DNA from: Escherichia phage vB_EcoM-pEK20
Reading direction: 5' to 3' (one strand)
DNA: 64,000 nucleotides
Sequence record: MZ868638.1
The notes below the pieces were generated by a model, which saw only the letters and a program-made list of their open reading frames with translations, ran no database searches and had not been told where the DNA came from. Position 1 is the stretch's first letter; every line of letters starts with the position of its first letter. The translations under genes and the position numbers were made by a program. Below, piece by piece: positions 43,713 to 53,429 of this stretch.

Positions 43713-44017
43713 TGACCGCTATTGAAGTTTTTGAGTACTGTTATAACAGCCCAGTATGCAATAAAAGGGCCCTTGTAGAAAATTATGAGATTTACCATTT
43801 TAAACCTAAACGATACCGTTTGACTAAAGGTCCGTTCGCAGGGCAGCAGGTTCTTTGTACTGCTCCTAATGCACGGTTGATGACTAGTATTCCACATTTC
43901 AAAATGGAATTTATTGATGGGCCATTTAAAGGATTAATCACTCAAAGTTTAATGGCGTTTAATTCCGACCCATTTTTGATTAAAGAAAAAACTTGGATAA
44001 ATTTATTTTCTAATTGA
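43709..44017 (+). CDS. hypothetical protein (102 aa)
   Basis: ORF with ATGA overlap to the upstream gene. Confidence 0.55.
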   Translation: MMTAIEVFEYCYNSPVCNKRALVENYEIYHFKPKRYRLTKGPFAGQQVLCTAPNARLMTSIPHFKMEFIDGPFKGLITQSLMAFNSDPFLIKEKTWINLFSN

Positions 44018-44023
44018 GGTTAT

Positions 44024-44386
44024 ATGAAAGCATATCAAATTCTTGAAGGTGAACATAAAGGCACTATTTATTTTGAAGACGGTACTCAAGCCCGGATTAT
44101 TGTCTCTAAGACTTTTAAAGAAGACACTATTGTAGACCCGGAAATTTTCTACGGTTTGAATGCTCGTGAAATTGAAATTGAACATCAACCTAAAGTTAAA
44201 ATTGAAGGTGGTCAACACCTGAACGTTAACGTTCTGCGTCGCGAAACTCTGGAAGATGCAGTTAAGCATCCAGAAAAATATCCGCAGCTGACCATCCGTG
44301 TATCCGGTTATGCAGTTCGCTTTAACTCTCTGACTCCGGAACAGCAGCGCGACGTTATCGCTCGTACCTTTACCGAGAGTCTATAA
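44024..44386 (+). CDS. autonomous glycyl radical cofactor (GrcA/YfiD-like, T4 Y06I-like)
   Basis: C-terminal [29 protein letters not shown] glycyl-radical motif; C-terminal half appears identical to remembered E. coli GrcA. Confidence 0.85.
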
Positions 44387-44610
44387 TGGCTAAATTGATT
44401 ATAGAAGGGTCTGAAGATGTTTTAAAATGTTTTGCCGCCTGGTTTAGTTGCCCAGGCGAGCAATCATTCATTGAAGCATTTAGAACGGGTGATATTACTG
44501 GAAACTATCCGACAACTGATATCACTGTACGTGGATATGGTATTAATGAGCCTATCCAATTGGTCGAATATGACCTTGCCACCGATGAGGAAATTCCTTA
44601 TGTCGATTGA
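44386..44610 (+). CDS. hypothetical small protein (74 aa)
   Basis: ORF with ATGG overlap. Confidence 0.55.
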   Translation: MAKLIIEGSEDVLKCFAAWFSCPGEQSFIEAFRTGDITGNYPTTDITVRGYGINEPIQLVEYDLATDEEIPYVD

Positions 44611-44845
44611 AGACATCAAAGGCTACAAGCCGCATACCGATGATAAAATCGGTAAAGTGAACGCTATTAAAGATGCCGAAGTTCGTTTAGGACTTATTCT
44701 AGACGCCCTGGCAGAAGAAGCATTATCAGCAAATACTCCTGAAGCTCTGACGGCTTTGTCCCAATTGAACTGTGCTAAAGAACGCCTAAAGGAAGCTAGT
44801 ATGTGGGCTTGTCGTGCGGTATTTCAACCAGAGGAAAAATACTAA
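44600..44845 (+). CDS. hypothetical small protein (81 aa)
   Basis: ATG at 44600 overlapping the upstream stop; the track ORF is extended upstream in the same frame. Confidence 0.5.
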
Positions 44846-45144
44846 TGGCTCAAATCCTATCAGGCTTTGGAACTCATTATGAAGCATCTCGACGCATAAC
44901 TGAAAGCAATCCTTTTGGCCTTGTTCCGAAGCACAAGAAAATTCAAAGCCTTGATGACTTTGAGAATCGCCTATGGGCCCTCTTTAATGAGTACAAGGCA
45001 TATCTGAAAGAAGACGCTGACGATTGTCTTGAAGAAGATGAGATTGCGTATTACGAACAACGCCTTGAACAGCTCAAGAACTTCCACCAGGTTCGTGACG
45101 AAGTATCTAAAGCAGTTAAAAAGTTAATTCCTTTCAAAGAGTAG
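44845..45144 (+). CDS. hypothetical protein (99 aa)
   Basis: ATG at 44845 (TAATG overlap) after GAGGAAAAA. Confidence 0.55.
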
Positions 45145-45172
45145 TTTACTTCTCCTCTAGTTGTGTTACTAT
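45144..45172 (+). promoter_or_regulatory. early promoter upstream of regB
   Basis: GTTTAC-N17-TACTAT; CTCTAGTTG in the spacer pairs with CAACTAGAG covering the regB Shine-Dalgarno. Confidence 0.6.
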
Positions 45173-45200
45173 AGACCTGTCAACTAGAGGAGAAATCAAA

Positions 45201-45659
45201 ATGACTATCAATTCAGACGTTTTTATCCGCCGCAATAAACTCCGTCGAATCTTTGAAACGGAGTTCCGCAAAATAAATGCCAGTATAAAAGATGCTGCAA
45301 AGTCTCTTGGACTACCGGGCTTTCATATCAAGTATTCTCAACATCTCTTAGATCGTGCCATCCAGAGAGAAATAGATGAGAATTACGTTTTTGAATTATT
45401 TCATAAAGTAAAAAATCATGTTAAAGAAGTTGCAGAATTTTTATCAATGCCGGCACGTCCAGATGTTGATGAAGATTTTGTCGAAGGTGTCGAATATCGC
45501 CCAGGCCGTTTAGAAATAACTGATGGAAATCTTTGGTTAGGACTTACAGTTTGTCGCGAAAATCCAGCATTCAAAATGAAGACTCTTCAATGCAGAATGG
45601 CTATTATTAACAATAAACGACTACCAGGAAAAGCTTCTAAAGCAGTGATTAAAATCTAG
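45201..45659 (+). CDS. regB: RegB sequence-specific endoribonuclease
   Basis: MTINSDVFIRRNKLRRIFETEFRKIN...YSQHLLDRAIQREIDENYVFELFHK; near-identical to remembered T4 RegB. Confidence 0.9.
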   Translation: MTINSDVFIRRNKLRRIFETEFRKINASIKDAAKSLGLPGFHIKYSQHLLDRAIQREIDENYVFELFHKVKNHVKEVAEFLSMPARPDVDEDFVEGVEYRPGRLEITDGNLWLGLTVCRENPAFKMKTLQCRMAIINNKRLPGKASKAVIKI

Positions 45660-45667
45660 AGGTAAAC

Positions 45668-46210
45668 ATGAGAAAAGCACTACTCGCTGGTCTATTTGCT
45701 CTTTCATTATCAGCACATAGCTCCGAGCATACTTTTAGTAATGTCCAACTCGATAACTTGAATTATGCTTATCAGTTTGGGGAACAGTTTTCTAAGGATG
45801 GAAAATTTAAAACGCATGAAAATATGCATAAGAAAGGACTTGGATACATAATGGCCGCAATACTATGGCAGGAATCATCTGCCGGTATTAATCTTAAAGA
45901 TAAGAAAGGTCACCATGCGTATGGAATGTTCCAAAATTATCTACCAACAATGAGGGCAAGAATTAACCAACTTGGTTATAATATGACTGATGCCCAAATT
46001 AAGAAAATGCTATCTAAGCGGTCTAATTCAGCCAGATGGGCTTATATAGAATTTTCTTATTGGTTAAATATACATAACGGGGATATAAGGAAAGCCTTAT
46101 CCTCATATAATGCGGGATGGAAGACAAGTGCTGGAAGTAAATATGCTTCTGAAGTCCTAGAAAAGGCTAATTACCTTAAATCAAATAAACTACTGGAAAT
46201 AAAAGAATGA
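45668..46210 (+). CDS. exported protein with lytic-transglycosylase-like motif
   Basis: Signal peptide MRKALLAGLFALSLSAHS; E-S...GMFQ motif (WQESSAG...AYGMFQNY) resembling the SLT catalytic region. Confidence 0.6.
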   Translation: MRKALLAGLFALSLSAHSSEHTFSNVQLDNLNYAYQFGEQFSKDGKFKTHENMHKKGLGYIMAAILWQESSAGINLKDKKGHHAYGMFQNYLPTMRARINQLGYNMTDAQIKKMLSKRSNSARWAYIEFSYWLNIHNGDIRKALSSYNAGWKTSAGSKYASEVLEKANYLKSNKLLEIKE

Positions 46211-46554
46211 CCAAAATGTTGGCTTTAATAGTTGGCTTGGTTTCATTTAACGCTCTTGCTAATACTACATATACTGATGTAACGGAGTATACAAACAGAA
46301 CGGCGTCTGATTATTGTGGTAAAAGTCAAGAGTGTAAAGTAGATTTTTCACAAAAATTGTTATATGCGTATAAAGACGGAGAAAAAGACGGGGCGTCTAG
46401 TAGGTTCAAGGCGTCTACTTTAATTAAAAGATACTATAAAAAATGGCAAATATTAGAATGCTCGGTGGCGGAACCTAAAGATAAGGCGGCATGCAATTCT
46501 ATGGTGGACCGTCTAGTTGACTCTTATACTAGAGGACTTGTAGCAAGTGATTAA
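46207..46554 (+). CDS. exported Cys-containing protein (115 aa)
   Basis: Signal peptide MTKMLALIVGLVSFNALA; four Cys. Confidence 0.55.
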   Translation: MTKMLALIVGLVSFNALANTTYTDVTEYTNRTASDYCGKSQECKVDFSQKLLYAYKDGEKDGASSRFKASTLIKRYYKKWQILECSVAEPKDKAACNSMVDRLVDSYTRGLVASD

Positions 46555-47014
46555 AAACTATATCAAGGGCGATATTGTCGCCCTGTTTTCTAAAGGTAAT
46601 AATATTGCTCATGGGTGCAATTGTTTTCATACAATGGGCGCCGGTGTAGCAGGTCAATTGGCAAAGGCTTATCCAAAAATTTTAGAAGCCGATAAACTTC
46701 AAACCGAATTCGGAGATGAGTCTAAACTCGGGACTTATTCGGTTTATGAAAAATATTTTAAGACCCATAAAGCTTATTGCTTTAATCTTTATACACAGTT
46801 TGAGCCGGGACCTAATTTTGAGTACTATGCTTTAATGAATTGTATAATAGAATTAAATGAATTCGGAAAAAATAAGATAACAAAGCCTGTAATTTATATG
46901 CCAAGAATTGGTGCAGGTATAGGTGGTGGAAACTGGGATATCATTGAAGAAATTCTTGATACATATTCCACTAAACTAGAAATTGTGATTGTTGATTGGG
47001 AACCATTATTATGA
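46547..47014 (+). CDS. macro domain protein (ADP-ribose binding/processing fold)
   Basis: Motifs GDIVALF...NIAHGCNC...GAGVAGQLAKAYP and PRIGAGIGGG judged typical of macro domains; apparent GTG start. Confidence 0.6.
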   Translation: MIKNYIKGDIVALFSKGNNIAHGCNCFHTMGAGVAGQLAKAYPKILEADKLQTEFGDESKLGTYSVYEKYFKTHKAYCFNLYTQFEPGPNFEYYALMNCIIELNEFGKNKITKPVIYMPRIGAGIGGGNWDIIEEILDTYSTKLEIVIVDWEPLL

Positions 47015-47223
47015 ATGTGCATTACCCACATCCGTTTGATCCTAAAAATAAAGCAGTAATTATTCGTCAATGGGAACGCATTTGTCGTACTAAATGTCCA
47101 ATTAATAGTCCACATGATGTAGATAAAGACTACATCGGAACATTCGTTGAATATACCTTTATTGATAAGAAAGGTCGTAAACAACATGTAGAAGAATATT
47201 GCTTAAAGGTTACATGGTTATGA
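47011..47223 (+). CDS. hypothetical small protein (70 aa), Cys/His-containing
   Basis: ATG at 47011. Confidence 0.5.
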   Translation: MNVHYPHPFDPKNKAVIIRQWERICRTKCPINSPHDVDKDYIGTFVEYTFIDKKGRKQHVEEYCLKVTWL

Positions 47224-47405
47224 GTTTAAGTAAAGAACAAAAAGACATACTATTTTCTCTTATTCACGAAGTTATGGATAAAAATAGTGAATTGGAAAAA
47301 GTTTGCGATGAATGCGGTCCTTTTAATACCGACGAATACGAAGAACTGTGTAAAGATTTCGACGATAAAGAACAAGAACTTATTGATTATATAAATTCCT
47401 TATGA
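47214..47405 (+). CDS. small acidic protein, family member
   Basis: MSLSKEQKDILFSLIHEV...; paralogous to 47402, 48830 and 49391 ORFs. Confidence 0.5.
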   Translation: MVMSLSKEQKDILFSLIHEVMDKNSELEKVCDECGPFNTDEYEELCKDFDDKEQELIDYINSL

Positions 47406-47599
47406 TTACTCGCGAACAAAAGAATGAAATACGATTTTTAATCAGCGAAATTATTAGTTTAGAACGAGATTTATCTTTTGAATTGGCTTCGGATTATGGA
47501 GATGCTGAAACATACTACGAATTAGTAAAATCTATCGATAAAGCTGAAAATGATTTAGAAACATATTTAGAAAATTTAACTAAGGACTCTTATGGCTAG
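47402..47599 (+). CDS. small acidic protein, family member
   Basis: MITREQKNEIRFLISEII... Confidence 0.55.
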   Translation: MITREQKNEIRFLISEIISLERDLSFELASDYGDAETYYELVKSIDKAENDLETYLENLTKDSYG

Positions 47600-48173
47600 T
47601 TTAATTTTTACATATGCCGCTATGAACGCTGGTAAGTCTGCTTCATTACTTACTGCCGCTCATAACTATAAAGAACGTGGCATGGGTGTATTAGTTCTTA
47701 AACCGGCTATTGATACTCGCGATTCAAAAGGTGAAATAGTCTCTCGTATTGGTATTCGTCAGGACGCCAATATAATTACAAAAGACATGGATATCTTTGA
47801 ATTCTATAAATGGGCTGCAGCACAAAAGGATATTCATTGTGTATTTGTTGACGAAGCTCAATTCTTAACTACTGAAAAGGTGTATCAACTTAGTCGTATT
47901 GTTGACGTATACAATGTGCCGGTAATGGCATATGGACTACGAACAGATTTTAAAGGTAATCTATTTGAAGGTTCTCAAGCATTAATGGCTATTGCCGATA
48001 AGCTTGTTGAACTTAAAGGTGTCTGTCATTGTGGTAAAAAGACCACAATGGTAGCTAGAGTCACGGAAGACGGACTTCCAATTATAGATGGCAGTCAAAT
48101 TGAAATTGGTGATACTGATAGATATGTGTCATTATGCCGGAAGCATTGGAATGATTTGACAGGGTTGTTATAA
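47592..48173 (+). CDS. tk: thymidine kinase
   Basis: P-loop AAMNAGKS; zinc-binding CHCGKK...C; near-identical to T4 Tk. Confidence 0.93.
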   Translation: MASLIFTYAAMNAGKSASLLTAAHNYKERGMGVLVLKPAIDTRDSKGEIVSRIGIRQDANIITKDMDIFEFYKWAAAQKDIHCVFVDEAQFLTTEKVYQLSRIVDVYNVPVMAYGLRTDFKGNLFEGSQALMAIADKLVELKGVCHCGKKTTMVARVTEDGLPIIDGSQIEIGDTDRYVSLCRKHWNDLTGLL

Positions 48174-48200
48174 ATACTAATATCTAACCAAGAGGTATAT

Positions 48201-48413
48201 ATGCAGCAATTAAACGAAAGACAACTTCGTAATCTTACTGTAACCCAATTGGATGAAATCCGAAGAGAATTAGGACATTCTATTTCTCATTTAAACGAGG
48301 ATATCCGTCAAACTGGTTCTAAAGCTGATTATACACGCAAGCGCAAGCTGGAAAAATACCTCACAGATGTTAAGGCCGTCCAAAGGCGAAAAATAAATAC
48401 TGGCCAAAATTAA
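48201..48413 (+). CDS. hypothetical protein (70 aa) between tk and rI
   Basis: ORF after AGAGG; position of T4 rI.1. Confidence 0.55.
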
Positions 48414-48425
48414 CAGGAGGCCTAT

Positions 48426-48728
48426 ATGGCCTTAAGAGCGATAGCTGTCATAGCGATGCTGGGGTTTTTTGCAGCAACAACTCCTATCGTTGGTACTGCA
48501 CATATCGACCCATATTTTGATAACTTTATGGAATCAGGGATTAAAAACGTATATACTTTGTTTGAAATTCAAAATGTCGAGAATTCTGAAAAATTCTATA
48601 AGTATATGGCAAAGCATTACAAAAATAGCCCCTGTGATGATGCATTTGAATGTCATGAACAAGGCATAAAAACCGCCAGACAATTTGCCGAGTTCATGAA
48701 AATAAAATTAGAGCCTACATCTATCTAA
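48426..48728 (+). CDS. rI: lysis inhibition antiholin RI
   Basis: MALRAIAVIAMLGFFAATTPIVGTAHIDPYFDNFMESGIKNVY... matches remembered T4 RI (signal-anchor, conserved Cys). Confidence 0.85.
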   Translation: MALRAIAVIAMLGFFAATTPIVGTAHIDPYFDNFMESGIKNVYTLFEIQNVENSEKFYKYMAKHYKNSPCDDAFECHEQGIKTARQFAEFMKIKLEPTSI

Positions 48729-48734
48729 TTTACT

Positions 48735-48762
48735 AGCCCCTTCCTTATGGTTGGGGCTTTTT
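48735..48762 (+). terminator. rho-independent terminator after rI
   Basis: AGCCCC-loop-GGGGCT followed by TTTTT; near-duplicate of the 32610 terminator. Confidence 0.8.
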
Positions 48763-48773
48763 GGCATTTAGCA

Positions 48774-48802
48774 GTTTACTTCTCCTCAGGTTGTGTTATA
48801 GT
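48774..48802 (+). promoter_or_regulatory. early promoter GTTTAC-N17-TATAGT
   Basis: TCTCCTC in the spacer pairs with GAGGAGA at the downstream Shine-Dalgarno. Confidence 0.55.
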
Positions 48803-48829
48803 AGTCCTTACTTACTAGAGGAGAACGTT

Positions 48830-49009
48830 ATGACACGTAAAGAAAAAATTTCTAAGTTAATGTTTTTGATTGAAGAGTACGCTAATGCGGTATCTGATTG
48901 GGAAAATGCTCATGGTTGCGAAGATGGAGACATCGACATTAACAGAGCTATGAAAAAGATGGCTGAAGCCCACACCGAATTGCAAATGTATGTTAACGAG
49001 ATTATGTGA
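48830..49009 (+). CDS. small acidic protein, family member
   Basis: MTRKEKISKLMFLIEEY...; ATG at 48830 after GAGGAG. Confidence 0.55.
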   Translation: MTRKEKISKLMFLIEEYANAVSDWENAHGCEDGDIDINRAMKKMAEAHTELQMYVNEIM

Positions 49010-52970: not shown

Positions 52971-53108
52971 GCTTATAGGAAGTTCTGAGGTAACAAAAGC
53001 CATAAAGATGAATAATCATATGGCTTACCTCAAAGAAGGACACCAGGAACCTACTGAGGGCATAGAAATATTTAAAAATAATGATGTACAAATCAAAGAG
53101 GATATGTT

Positions 53109-53396
53109 ATGGATTTTATGCAAAAAATTAAAGCCGCAGTAGAACTCTATGCTCATCGTATGGTTAGTTCTACAATGCAATATAGCGAGGAGGTTCGCCA
53201 GGACTCTTCCTTGAAAGGAAAAACTAAAGCCTTAATTACCTTAGATCGTTTGCAAAAGAATGCCATAGAGATGCTCCAGTACGACAAGGCTGTATATAAG
53301 AAAGAACAGGAAGAGAAACTTAAATCTGAAAAATTACAGAAAATTCCGAAATCGGTTTGGTTCAGTGGAAAAAATACCGAAAAAAGTTTCTTTTAG
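53109..53396 (+). CDS. hypothetical protein (95 aa), helical and Lys/Glu-rich
   Basis: ORF after AGAGGA. Confidence 0.55.
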   Translation: MDFMQKIKAAVELYAHRMVSSTMQYSEEVRQDSSLKGKTKALITLDRLQKNAIEMLQYDKAVYKKEQEEKLKSEKLQKIPKSVWFSGKNTEKSFF

Positions 53397-53398
53397 TT

Positions 53399-53429
53399 GT
53401 TTACAAGGTCTATAGTTATGTTATTATAG
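53399..53429 (+). promoter_or_regulatory. early promoter with palindrome GGTCTATAG...TATAGACC
   Basis: GTTTAC-N17-TATTAT. Confidence 0.55.

What the first reader, a model, noticed from the sequence alone, without database searches (positions are those of the whole stretch)
46547..47014. Macro-domain protein with apparent GTG start
The 155-aa ORF has glycine-rich motifs (NIAHGCNC, GAGVAGQ, PRIGAGIGGG) laid out like an ADP-ribose-binding macro domain. A phage macro domain could reverse ADP-ribosylation by host defence toxins or process NAD-derived signals. It seems to start at GTG overlapping the previous gene.
Basis: partly seen in the sequence, partly recalled or inferred. Interest (0 to 1): 0.55.

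Follow-up and report, generated by a model that had tools for sequence, protein, structure and literature searches.

The report
T4 tk.4 (AdfM) macrodomain orthologue
This is the T4-like phage gene tk.4, a small ADP-ribose-handling (macro domain) enzyme whose T4 counterpart was recently shown to protect the phage from the bacterial DarTG2 DNA-ADP-ribosylating defence, so the finding is correct but already known.

Summary

The window comes from a T4-like Mosigvirus, 99.6% identical to Shigella phage SSE1. The ORF is the syntenic orthologue of T4 tk.4 (85% identity). T4 tk.4 has long been annotated as an 'A1pp phosphatase'. A 2025 preprint showed that a T4 tk.4 knockout becomes sensitive to DarTG2 and renamed the gene adfM.

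What I add:
- The GTG start is real. T4 has ATG at the same codon, and the internal ATG used in the SSE1 record would delete the catalytic HGCNC motif.
- The active site is Gln-type (H22/N25/Q84), like SCO6735, a proven thymidine-ADP-ribose DNA hydrolase. It is not the Lys-type of DarG or PhiKZ 'AdfM'.
- The closest biochemically characterised relative (35%) is the phage ADPR-1''-phosphate phosphatase Adpp. This phage has no NARP1 partner gene, so that role is unlikely to be the main one.

Verdict: already known, low interest.

The parts
46547..47014 (+). tk.4 / adfM orthologue: 155-aa single-domain macro protein (end coordinate includes the TGA stop)
46547..46549 (+). GTG start codon, inside the 8-nt overlap GTGATTAA with the end of vs
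   Evidence: Sequence. T4 has ATG at the homologous codon. S143_2 and Mizar annotate this start.
46532..46536 (+). Shine-Dalgarno-like GAGGA, 10 nt upstream of the GTG
   Evidence: Sequence. An RBS is annotated at the equivalent position in phage Mizar.
46610..46624 (+). HGCNC motif (H22-C26). H22, G23, N25 and C26 are invariant in the family.
   Evidence: Alignments. H22 aligns with Adpp H24 (an H24A mutant was made and Adpp mutations abolish anti-aRES activity) and with SCO6735 H24. N25 aligns with PhiKZ gp104 N23 (N23A reduces activity) and with SCO6735 N27.
46637..46654 (+). GAGVAG glycine-rich loop after strand 2 (the GxG ADP-ribose-binding loop of macro domains)
   Evidence: G31 is nearly invariant and G33 invariant. 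The GxG loop is described as part of the ADPr cleft in PMC9503650.
46784..46798 (+). NLYTQ motif. Q84 occupies the position of the catalytic Lys of DarG (K80) and TARG1 (K84), and equals SCO6735 Q85.
   Evidence: Profile alignment to TARG1. Multiple alignments. SCO6735 Q85A/E mutants are inactive (PMC9411070).
46901..46936 (+). PRIGAGIGGGNW, the second glycine-rich (diphosphate-binding) loop. G126 sits where TARG1 has the catalytic D125.
   Evidence: Alignments. P119, I121, G122, G124 and W130 are invariant.
46207..46554 (+). Upstream gene vs (valyl-tRNA synthetase modifier). Its stop overlaps the tk.4 start.
   Evidence: PHROG 1256, E=6.5e-35. Annotation in relatives.
47011..47223 (+). Downstream gene, the tk.3 homologue (DUF7202). 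Its ATG overlaps the tk.4 stop (ATGA).
   Evidence: Pfam DUF7202, E=9e-39, starting at residue 6 of the TTG-started ORF. S143_2 CDS coordinates. Sequence.
46566..46584 (+). 8-bp G+C-rich hairpin followed by a T-run, 17 nt into the ORF. A possible attenuator or translational-coupling element; function not established.
   Evidence: Terminator-like scan. The hairpin sequence is identical in T4, while the downstream T-run differs slightly. A terminator is annotated at the same place in Yersinia phage fPS-2. Fold z-score is -2.8, with the SD paired to 46585-46592.

Best explanation
The ORF is the Mosigvirus orthologue of bacteriophage T4 tk.4 (recently renamed adfM). It is a stand-alone 155-aa macrodomain of the ALC1/TARG1/DarG-like class. 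It is translated from a GTG that overlaps the end of vs.

Its most likely role is counter-defence against DarTG2-type toxin-antitoxin systems. DarT2 ADP-ribosylates thymidines in single-stranded phage DNA and blocks replication. The macrodomain binds the ADP-ribose through its two glycine-rich loops and hydrolyses the thymine-ribose bond, restoring the DNA.

The chemistry is probably that of the Gln-type enzymes such as SCO6735, in which a glutamine positions the substrate and an activated water attacks. It is probably not the lysine chemistry of DarG or TARG1, because H22, N25 and Q84 match SCO6735 H24, N27 and Q85.

Shown here: the ORF, its start, the fold, the orthology, the synteny and the active-site residues. 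Taken from the literature on the T4 orthologue: the anti-DarTG2 phenotype. Inferred only: the enzymatic removal of ADP-ribose from DNA by this subfamily. Direct inhibition of DarT2 by binding, as reported for SCO6735, may also contribute.
For: Orthology:
- 85% identity over all 155 residues with no gaps.
- Same gene order regB - vs.1 - vs - tk.4 - tk.3 - tk.2 - tk.1 - tk as in T4.
- The window is 99.6% identical to Mosigvirus SSE1.

Macro fold:
- Pfam score above the gathering cut-off.
- AF2 model with pLDDT 94 and pTM 0.89.
- DarG is the only hit in NCBIfam (4.9e-7) and in PADLOC (3.9e-8).

Function of the orthologue: tk.4 was the single significant T4 hit in a transposon screen on a DarTG2 host, and a clean deletion became DarTG2-sensitive (bioRxiv 10.1101/2025.11.20.689424).

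Chemistry: Q84 aligns with DarG K80, TARG1 K84 and SCO6735 Q85. SCO6735 removes DarT-made ADP-ribose from thymidine and is killed by Q85A/E (PMC9411070). N25 aligns with N23 of PhiKZ gp104, whose N23A mutant has reduced de-ADP-ribosylation activity.

There is only one macro gene in the whole SSE1 genome.
Against: - No biochemical assay exists for any Tk.4-type protein. The T4 evidence is genetic and comes from a preprint.
- The protein lacks DarG's catalytic lysine and DarG's C-terminal DarT-binding domain. The NCBIfam DarG score is 29 bits against a cut-off of 250.
- It lacks the longer loop after the Gln, and the K34/K89 basic residues, that the SCO6735 paper links to high DNA activity.
- By sequence it is closer to the ADPR-1''-phosphate phosphatase Adpp (35%, E=1e-23) than to DarG (21-23%) or SCO6735 (21%).
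- The window protein itself, 15% different from T4 Tk.4, has not been tested.
Confidence: 0.7

Rival explanations
1. The protein is primarily an ADP-ribose-1''-phosphate phosphatase (Poa1p/Adpp-like). It would dephosphorylate the ADPR-1''P made by RES-domain NADase defences (aRES) or by RNA-repair side reactions. This is also the old 'A1pp phosphatase' annotation of T4 tk.4.
For: - T4 tk.4 is annotated 'phosphatase; contains A1pp phosphatase motif', and PHROG 335 is named 'phosphatase'.
- The closest biochemically characterised relative is Vibrio phage Gary Adpp: 35% identity, E=1e-23. Adpp converts ADPR-1''P to ADPR in vitro and is needed for anti-aRES activity.
- The motifs are shared: HxCNC with Adpp H24 equal to window H22, NxY[GT]Q, and GxG[IL]xGGxW.
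- Some NARP1-linked macros, such as the one from Acinetobacter phage phiAbaA1, carry the identical HGCNC and NAYTQ motifs.
Against: - Adpp only counters aRES together with Adps and Namat; inactivating any of the three abolishes the effect.
- tblastn with the Adps N-terminal 133 aa finds nothing in the whole SSE1 genome (best E 2.3). The same query finds more than 1000 other phage records.
- No Escherichia or Shigella phage appears in the table of NARP1-associated macro genes.
- The gene sits between vs and tk.3, not in a NARP1 operon.
- The T4 knockout phenotype is specific to DarTG2.
Confidence: 0.15
2. It erases or tunes the phage's own ADP-ribosylation. It would remove ADP-ribose, or RNA-linked ADP-ribose, that Alt, ModA or ModB place on host proteins.
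For: The phage encodes its own ADP-ribosyltransferases: two 'RNA polymerase ADP-ribosylase' genes in SSE1 at 100248-100856 and 155755-157842. SCO6735, which has the same Gln-type site, also hydrolyses protein-linked ADP-ribose.
Against: Alt, ModA and ModB modify arginine (ModA at Arg265; PMC8120803). From general knowledge, macrodomains are not known to cleave arginine-linked ADP-ribose. The paper text I read reports tk.4 only as a DarTG2-specific hit; I did not check its fitness without the defence system. No genomic linkage to alt or mod genes was seen.
Confidence: 0.05
3. It is a non-catalytic ADP-ribose binder. It would act as a sponge for ADPR-derived immune signals, or block DarT2 by binding it, without hydrolysing anything.
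Against: All residues needed for catalysis in related enzymes (H22, N25, Q84) are invariant across the family. That pattern is typical of an enzyme rather than a binder.
Confidence: 0.05
4. The gene really starts at the internal ATG (46634) and encodes a 126-aa protein, as annotated in the closest GenBank record, SSE1.
For: The SSE1 CDS 53035..53415 starts at that ATG.
Against: Such a protein would lack strand 1, helix 1, strand 2 and the invariant HGCNC motif. T4 has ATG at the position of the GTG. The N-termini of nearly all the aligned homologues coincide there. A Shine-Dalgarno sequence lies 10 nt upstream of the GTG. Other annotations use the GTG.
Confidence: 0.02

Closest known systems
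Bacteriophage T4 Tk.4 (NP_049723; renamed AdfM in bioRxiv 10.1101/2025.11.20.689424)
   Same: Same length (155 aa), 85% identity with no gaps, and the same position between vs and tk.3. Same HGCNC, NLYTQ and glycine-loop motifs.
   Different: The start codon is GTG with an 8-nt overlap, where T4 has ATG with a 4-nt ATGA overlap. Position 127 is Gly, as in at least 90% of the family, where T4 has Lys. The window protein has not been tested experimentally.
Streptomyces coelicolor SCO6735 (PDB 5E3B) and Bacteroides BT1257 (PDB 2AFC/2FG1): Gln-type ALC1-like macrodomains
   Different: Only 21-31% identity. The loop after the Gln is shorter: 8 residues between Q and the conserved Y, against 13. SCO6735 K34 and K89 have no basic equivalents. 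SCO6735 is bacterial and chromosomal, not a phage gene.
DarG antitoxin macrodomain (M. tuberculosis 5M3I, T. aquaticus 5M31) and PhiKZ gp104 'AdfM' (Cell Rep 2026, PMC13309987)
   Different: Those proteins keep the catalytic Lys (the FPTK motif), whereas this protein has Gln. Identity is 20-23%. There is no DarT-binding C-terminal domain and no adjacent darT gene. PhiKZ gp104 and T4 Tk.4 share the name AdfM but belong to different subfamilies.
Adpp, the NARP1-associated ADPR-1''-phosphate phosphatase of Vibrio phage Gary (bioRxiv 10.64898/2026.01.28.702374), and yeast Poa1p (PDB 6LFQ)
   Different: The gene is not in a NARP1 operon, and the phage has no Adps. Adpp has a longer loop after the Gln. 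The orthologue's phenotype is anti-DarTG2, not anti-aRES.
Human TARG1/OARD1 (PDB 4J5R, 2LGR)
   Different: Both residues of the TARG1 catalytic dyad are replaced: K84 by Q84 and D125 by G126.

Membership tests
Macro domain superfamily (Pfam PF01661) | Profile match above the curated gathering score | tested here: met
   28 bits against a gathering score of 22, E=2.3e-6, covering profile positions 2-117 of 118.
Macro domain superfamily (Pfam PF01661) | Three-layer alpha/beta/alpha fold with a central mixed beta-sheet | tested here: met
Macro domain superfamily (Pfam PF01661) | Glycine-rich ADP-ribose/diphosphate-binding loops (GxG after strand 2; GxGxxGG before the last helix) | tested here: met
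   G31-A-G33 and G122-A-G124-I-G-G-G128. G33, G122 and G124 are invariant, and G31 and G127 are conserved in at least 90% of sequences.
Macro domain superfamily (Pfam PF01661) | Binds ADP-ribose | not testable with these tools
   Needs ITC, a thermal-shift assay or a co-crystal structure.
T4 Tk.4 / AdfM orthologous group | High full-length identity to T4 Tk.4 | tested here: met
   131 of 155 residues identical, no gaps, E=5e-104.
T4 Tk.4 / AdfM orthologous group | Conserved position between vs and tk.3 in the regB-tk early region | tested here: met
   ORFs and PHROG hits in the window. T4 gene map. S143_2 map.
T4 Tk.4 / AdfM orthologous group | Loss of the gene sensitises the phage to DarTG2 | not testable with these tools
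   Shown only for T4 itself, in a preprint.
DarG antitoxin (NCBIfam NF048014) | Score above the equivalog cut-off; two-domain protein of about 340 aa with a C-terminal DarT-binding domain | tested here: not met
   29.3 bits against a cut-off of 250. Only the macro part (profile positions 4-146 of 338) matches, and the protein is 155 aa.
DarG antitoxin (NCBIfam NF048014) | Catalytic lysine (K80) in the FPTK motif | tested here: not met
   The aligned residue is the invariant Gln84 (NLYTQ). The DarG sequence was verified against PDB 5M3I.
DarG antitoxin (NCBIfam NF048014) | Encoded next to a darT toxin gene | tested here: not met
   The neighbours are vs and the tk.3 homologue.
TARG1-type macrodomain | Lys84/Asp125 catalytic dyad | tested here: not met
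   Q84 and G126 occupy the aligned positions.
Gln-type ALC1-like macrodomain hydrolases (SCO6735 / BT1257) | Gln in place of the catalytic Lys, plus the His-x-Cys-Asn motif after strand 2 | tested here: met
   H22, C24, N25 and Q84 equal SCO6735 H24, C26, N27 and Q85. The role of these residues is described in PMC9411070.
Gln-type ALC1-like macrodomain hydrolases (SCO6735 / BT1257) | Extra loop after the Gln and basic residues K34/K89, linked to DNA binding | tested here: not met
   The loop is 5 residues shorter. A32 aligns with K34, and K89 has no equivalent.
Adpp (NARP1-AP ADPR-1''P phosphatase) | Homology to the characterised Adpp, including the catalytic His24 | tested here: met
   35% identity, E=1e-23. 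H22 aligns with H24.
Adpp (NARP1-AP ADPR-1''P phosphatase) | Encoded in or next to a NARP1 operon (Adps + Namat) | tested here: not met
   No Adps homologue in the window or in the whole SSE1 genome (best E 2.3). No Escherichia or Shigella phage appears in the paper's Table S1. Caveat: only the N-terminal 133 aa of Adps were available as a query.
Adpp (NARP1-AP ADPR-1''P phosphatase) | ADPR-1''P phosphatase activity | not testable with these tools
   Needs an enzyme assay.

The most novel reading that the evidence does not exclude
Tk.4-type phage macrodomains may be bifunctional. One Gln-type active site (H22/N25/Q84) would both remove DarT2-made ADP-ribose from thymidine in DNA and dephosphorylate ADPR-1''-phosphate. 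A single 155-aa protein would then blunt two unrelated NAD-based defences, DarTG2 and RES-type NADases. The NARP1-linked Adpp enzymes and the T4 AdfM enzymes would be sub-functionalised versions of one ancestral phage enzyme.
Probability: 0.2. Interest if true: 0.5.

Novelty: already known. Interest (0 to 1): 0.2.

Why it matters
The gene is a standard part of T4-like genomes: 2790 phage records carry a homologue. The result therefore mainly confirms that the first-stage reading was sound.

Three small points have practical value:
- Annotation pipelines sometimes truncate this gene to an internal ATG, as in the SSE1 record. That deletes the catalytic motif and hides the domain.
- The name AdfM now covers two different macrodomain subfamilies: Lys-type PhiKZ gp104 and Gln-type T4 Tk.4. 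Their chemistry should not be assumed to be the same.
- The Tk.4 subfamily is closest in sequence to ADPR-1''P phosphatases. Its substrate range is a real, cheaply testable open question for anyone working on phage counter-defence against NAD-based immunity.

Tried and rejected
- Two literature and paper-search calls failed on terms that were too short.
It was rerun without that row.
- The sigma-70 promoter scan of 44000-49000 showed no enrichment, with 16 sites found against 17.8 expected. It says nothing about how the gene is transcribed.
- The NCBIfam DarG hit is far below the cut-off (29 against 250 bits). I rejected 'is a DarG' while keeping 'works like the DarG macrodomain'.
- I first read the missing catalytic Lys as evidence against DNA de-ADP-ribosylation. 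I dropped that after finding that SCO6735, which has Gln at the same site, is a proven thymidine-ADPr hydrolase.
- I considered the Adpp/NARP1-AP role and rated it low, because no Adps homologue exists in the SSE1 genome.
- The CmdTAC paper and a bacterial ADP-ribosylation review contained nothing on tk.4.
- I did not run the large representative-protein search, the metagenome or genome scans, or Rfam, because the identity of the gene was settled without them.

Full report
**Observation.** The mechanical ORF list gives 46547..47014 (+), 155 aa with a GTG start. The raw sequence shows GTG at 46547-46549 inside the string GTGATTAA. Its last three bases, TAA at 46552-46554, are the stop of the preceding ORF 46207..46554. 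A GAGGA Shine-Dalgarno-like sequence sits at 46532-46536, 10 nt upstream. The first in-frame ATG is codon 30 (46634).

**Where the window comes from.** Megablast of 45600-48200 finds 673 phage records. The best is Shigella phage SSE1 at 99.6% identity. SSE1 is classified as Mosigvirus JS09, Tevenvirinae, Straboviridae. The flanking ORFs are the T4 genes regB, vs.1, vs, tk.3, tk.2, tk.1, tk, rI.1 and rI, in T4 order. The ORF under study lies exactly where T4 has tk.4. T4 tk.4 is NP_049723, 155 aa, annotated 'phosphatase; contains A1pp phosphatase motif'. The window protein is 85% identical to it over its full length, with no gaps. It is therefore the tk.4 orthologue of a Mosigvirus.

**Is it a macro domain?** Yes.
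- Pfam Macro (PF01661) matches at 28 bits against a gathering score of 22, E=2.3e-6, across nearly the whole profile.
- PHROG 335 ('phosphatase') matches at E=2e-66.
- The only NCBIfam and PADLOC hits are DarG, at 4.9e-7 and 3.9e-8. Both cover only the macro part and score far below the DarG cut-off.
- Sequence search of the PDB finds BT1257, Poa1p, SCO6735, DarG and TARG1. A family profile raises these to E=1e-18 to 1e-11.
- An AlphaFold2 model built on 32 homologues has mean pLDDT 94 and pTM 0.89.

The protein thus belongs to the ALC1/TARG1/DarG/Poa1p-like class.

**Start codon.** Several lines support the GTG.
- T4 has ATG at the homologous codon (…CTAGATGATTGTAAAATAT… against …GCAAGTGATTAAAAACTAT…), and the two N-termini align residue for residue.
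- Nearly all of the 32 homologues in the alignment begin at the same column with Met-Ile.
- Codons 2-29 differ from T4 at 6 synonymous and 5 non-synonymous positions, with 17 identical. This resembles the rest of the gene, which has 40 synonymous and 19 non-synonymous differences.
- Residues 1-29 form strand 1, helix 1 and strand 2 of the model. They hold the family-invariant H22, G23, N25 and C26.
- The S143_2 and Mizar records annotate the same GTG, and Mizar also annotates an RBS.
- The closest record, SSE1, annotates a 126-aa CDS from the internal ATG (53035, equal to window 46634). This looks like a gene-caller artefact.

The 8-nt overlap with vs, and the ATGA overlap with tk.3 at 47011-47014, are typical of translationally coupled T4 early genes.

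**What is known about the gene.** A bioRxiv preprint of November 2025 (10.1101/2025.11.20.689424) screened a T4 transposon library on E. coli expressing DarTG2. The single significant hit was tk.4. A clean deletion was sensitive to DarTG2. The authors renamed the gene adfM (anti-DarT factor Macrodomain). They inferred, from structural similarity to M. tuberculosis DarG, that it removes ADP-ribose from DNA, but they did not assay this. T4's other factor, 30.3/AdfN, is a NADAR enzyme that handles guanine-directed DarTG1.

**Active site.** I verified the M. tuberculosis DarG macrodomain sequence against PDB 5M3I, where it is 100% identical. I took the T. aquaticus DarG, TARG1, BT1257 and SCO6735 sequences from the printed PDB alignments.
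- In multiple alignments the catalytic lysine of DarG (K80, FPTK) and TARG1 (K84) aligns with Gln84 of the window protein (NLYTQ). TARG1 D125 aligns with Gly126.
- Gln84 is invariant in all 32 family members, together with H22, G23, N25, C26, D49, N80 and Y82.
- The absence of the lysine does not argue against DNA de-ADP-ribosylation. SCO6735 has Gln85 at the same position and lacks the TARG1 and DarG catalytic residues. It nevertheless removes DarT-made ADP-ribose from thymidine efficiently, rescues DarT toxicity, and is inactivated by Q85A or Q85E. Its authors propose a water-mediated mechanism in which Gln positions the substrate (PMC9411070).
- Window H22, N25 and Q84 correspond to SCO6735 H24, N27 and Q85.
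- N25 also aligns with N23 of PhiKZ gp104, whose N23A mutant shows reduced de-ADP-ribosylation of a T-ADPr oligonucleotide.
- There are differences from SCO6735. The loop after the Gln is 5 residues shorter, and the basic residues K34 and K89 are not conserved.

**Naming.** A Cell Reports 2026 paper (PMC13309987) independently named PhiKZ gp104 'AdfM' and showed its activity biochemically. That protein is a Lys-type, DarG-like macrodomain with an FPTK motif. It is only about 20% identical to the window protein. Two different subfamilies now share one name.

**The main rival.** A January 2026 preprint (10.64898/2026.01.28.702374) reports that 15% of phage NARP1 operons carry a macro-domain gene, Adpp. 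The Vibrio phage Gary enzyme dephosphorylates ADPR-1''-phosphate, the product of the RES-domain defence aRES, so that NARP1 can rebuild NAD+. Mutations in Adpp abolish the effect, and an H24A mutant was constructed.
- Gary Adpp is 35% identical to the window protein (E=1e-23). It shares the HxCNC, NxY[GT]Q and GxGLAGGxW motifs.
- Other NARP1-linked macros are 32-39% identical. One, from Acinetobacter phage phiAbaA1, carries the very same HGCNC and NAYTQ motifs.
- By sequence, the window protein is therefore closer to a proven ADPR-1''P phosphatase than to any proven DNA de-ADP-ribosylase. This also fits the old 'A1pp phosphatase' label.
- However, Adpp works only together with Adps and Namat. 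tblastn with the available 133-aa N-terminal part of Gary Adps finds nothing in the window or in the complete SSE1 genome, with a best E of 2.3. The same query retrieves 1083 other phage records.
- No Escherichia or Shigella phage appears in the paper's table of NARP1-linked macros.
- The same tblastn run with Adpp and DarG queries shows that the tk.4 locus is the only macro-domain gene in the genome.

I therefore keep anti-DarTG2 as the main function at 0.7. I rate a phosphatase-only role at 0.15, and I note a dual activity as the most interesting open possibility.

**Other rivals.**
- Erasing the phage's own Alt/ModA/ModB modifications. Those enzymes are encoded in SSE1, but they target arginine. 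From general knowledge, macrodomains are not known to cleave arginine-linked ADP-ribose.
- A non-catalytic binder. The invariant catalytic residues argue against this.
- The truncated ATG-start protein. The start-codon evidence above argues against this.

**Comparison and novelty.** The protein is a member of the macro superfamily and of the T4 Tk.4/AdfM orthologous group. It works like the DarG macrodomain but is not a DarG: it has no catalytic Lys, no DarT-binding domain, no adjacent darT gene, and a score far below the cut-off. Its active site is of the SCO6735/BT1257 Gln type, but without their extended loop. Nothing about the gene in this window departs from its many relatives. tblastn finds homologues in 2790 phage records, of which 2429 cover at least 80% of the protein. 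Novelty: already known. Interest: low (0.2). The residual value lies in three points: the annotation error in the SSE1 record, the Lys-type against Gln-type distinction hidden by the shared name AdfM, and the untested substrate range of the Tk.4 subfamily.

Noticed in passing
window 46566-46584 (with T-run to 46592); T4 NC_000866 around 61350: There is an 8-bp G+C-rich hairpin (AGGGCGAT-ATT-GTCGCCCT) followed by GTTTTCT, 17 nt inside the tk.4 ORF. The hairpin sequence is identical in T4, though the T-run that follows differs slightly. A 'terminator' is annotated at the same place in the tk.4 homologue of Yersinia phage fPS-2. In the minimum-free-energy fold of 46525-46600, the Shine-Dalgarno region (46530-46537) pairs with 46585-46592 on top of this hairpin (-19.3 kcal/mol, z=-2.8). 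It could be an attenuator, or a structure that makes tk.4 translation depend on ribosomes finishing vs.
   Followed up: partly
window 46634 (= SSE1 MK639187 53035): The closest GenBank record, Shigella phage SSE1, annotates this gene from the internal ATG as a 126-aa 'hypothetical protein'. That loses the first 29 residues, including the invariant HGCNC motif. S143_2 and Mizar annotate the GTG start.
   Followed up: yes
window 46996-47223: The mechanical ORF starts at TTG 46996, but the DUF7202 match begins at residue 6. The real start of the tk.3 homologue is ATG 47011, which overlaps the tk.4 stop as ATGA. This agrees with the S143_2 annotation.
   Followed up: partly
window 45668-46210: The vs.1 homologue (180 aa) has an N-terminal signal-peptide-like sequence (MRKALLAGLFALSLSAHS). 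It shows a weak, sub-threshold match to the SLT lytic transglycosylase domain (Pfam E=0.0013, 18.8 bits against a gathering score of 21.3), and one relative's record lists a 'lytic transglycosylase protein' in this region (which CDS was not checked). Its function in T4 is still listed as hypothetical.
   Followed up: no
residue 127 of the protein (window 46925-46927) against T4 Tk.4: T4 has Lys in the second glycine loop (GAGIGKGNW). The window protein and at least 90% of the family have Gly (GAGIGGGNW). The experimentally studied T4 protein is thus the atypical one at this loop position.
   Followed up: no
literature (PMC13309987 against bioRxiv 10.1101/2025.11.20.689424): The name AdfM has been given independently to two non-orthologous phage macrodomains. 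PhiKZ gp104 is Lys-type, DarG-like and shown biochemically. T4 Tk.4 is Gln-type, SCO6735/Adpp-like and supported by genetics only. They are about 20% identical.
   Followed up: yes
window 46983-47012: A weak sigma-70-like promoter match (TTGTGA-18-TATTAT, 9 of 12) lies at the 3' end of tk.4. It is in roughly the same relative position as the 'predicted early promoter' annotated in Yersinia phage fPS-2. The scan as a whole showed no enrichment over shuffles.
   Followed up: no
SSE1 MK639187 100248-100856 and 155755-157842 (outside the window): The phage encodes its own ADP-ribosyltransferases, annotated 'RNA polymerase ADP-ribosylase' (Mod-like and Alt-like). It therefore both writes ADP-ribose, through these enzymes, and probably erases it, through Tk.4.
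   Followed up: no
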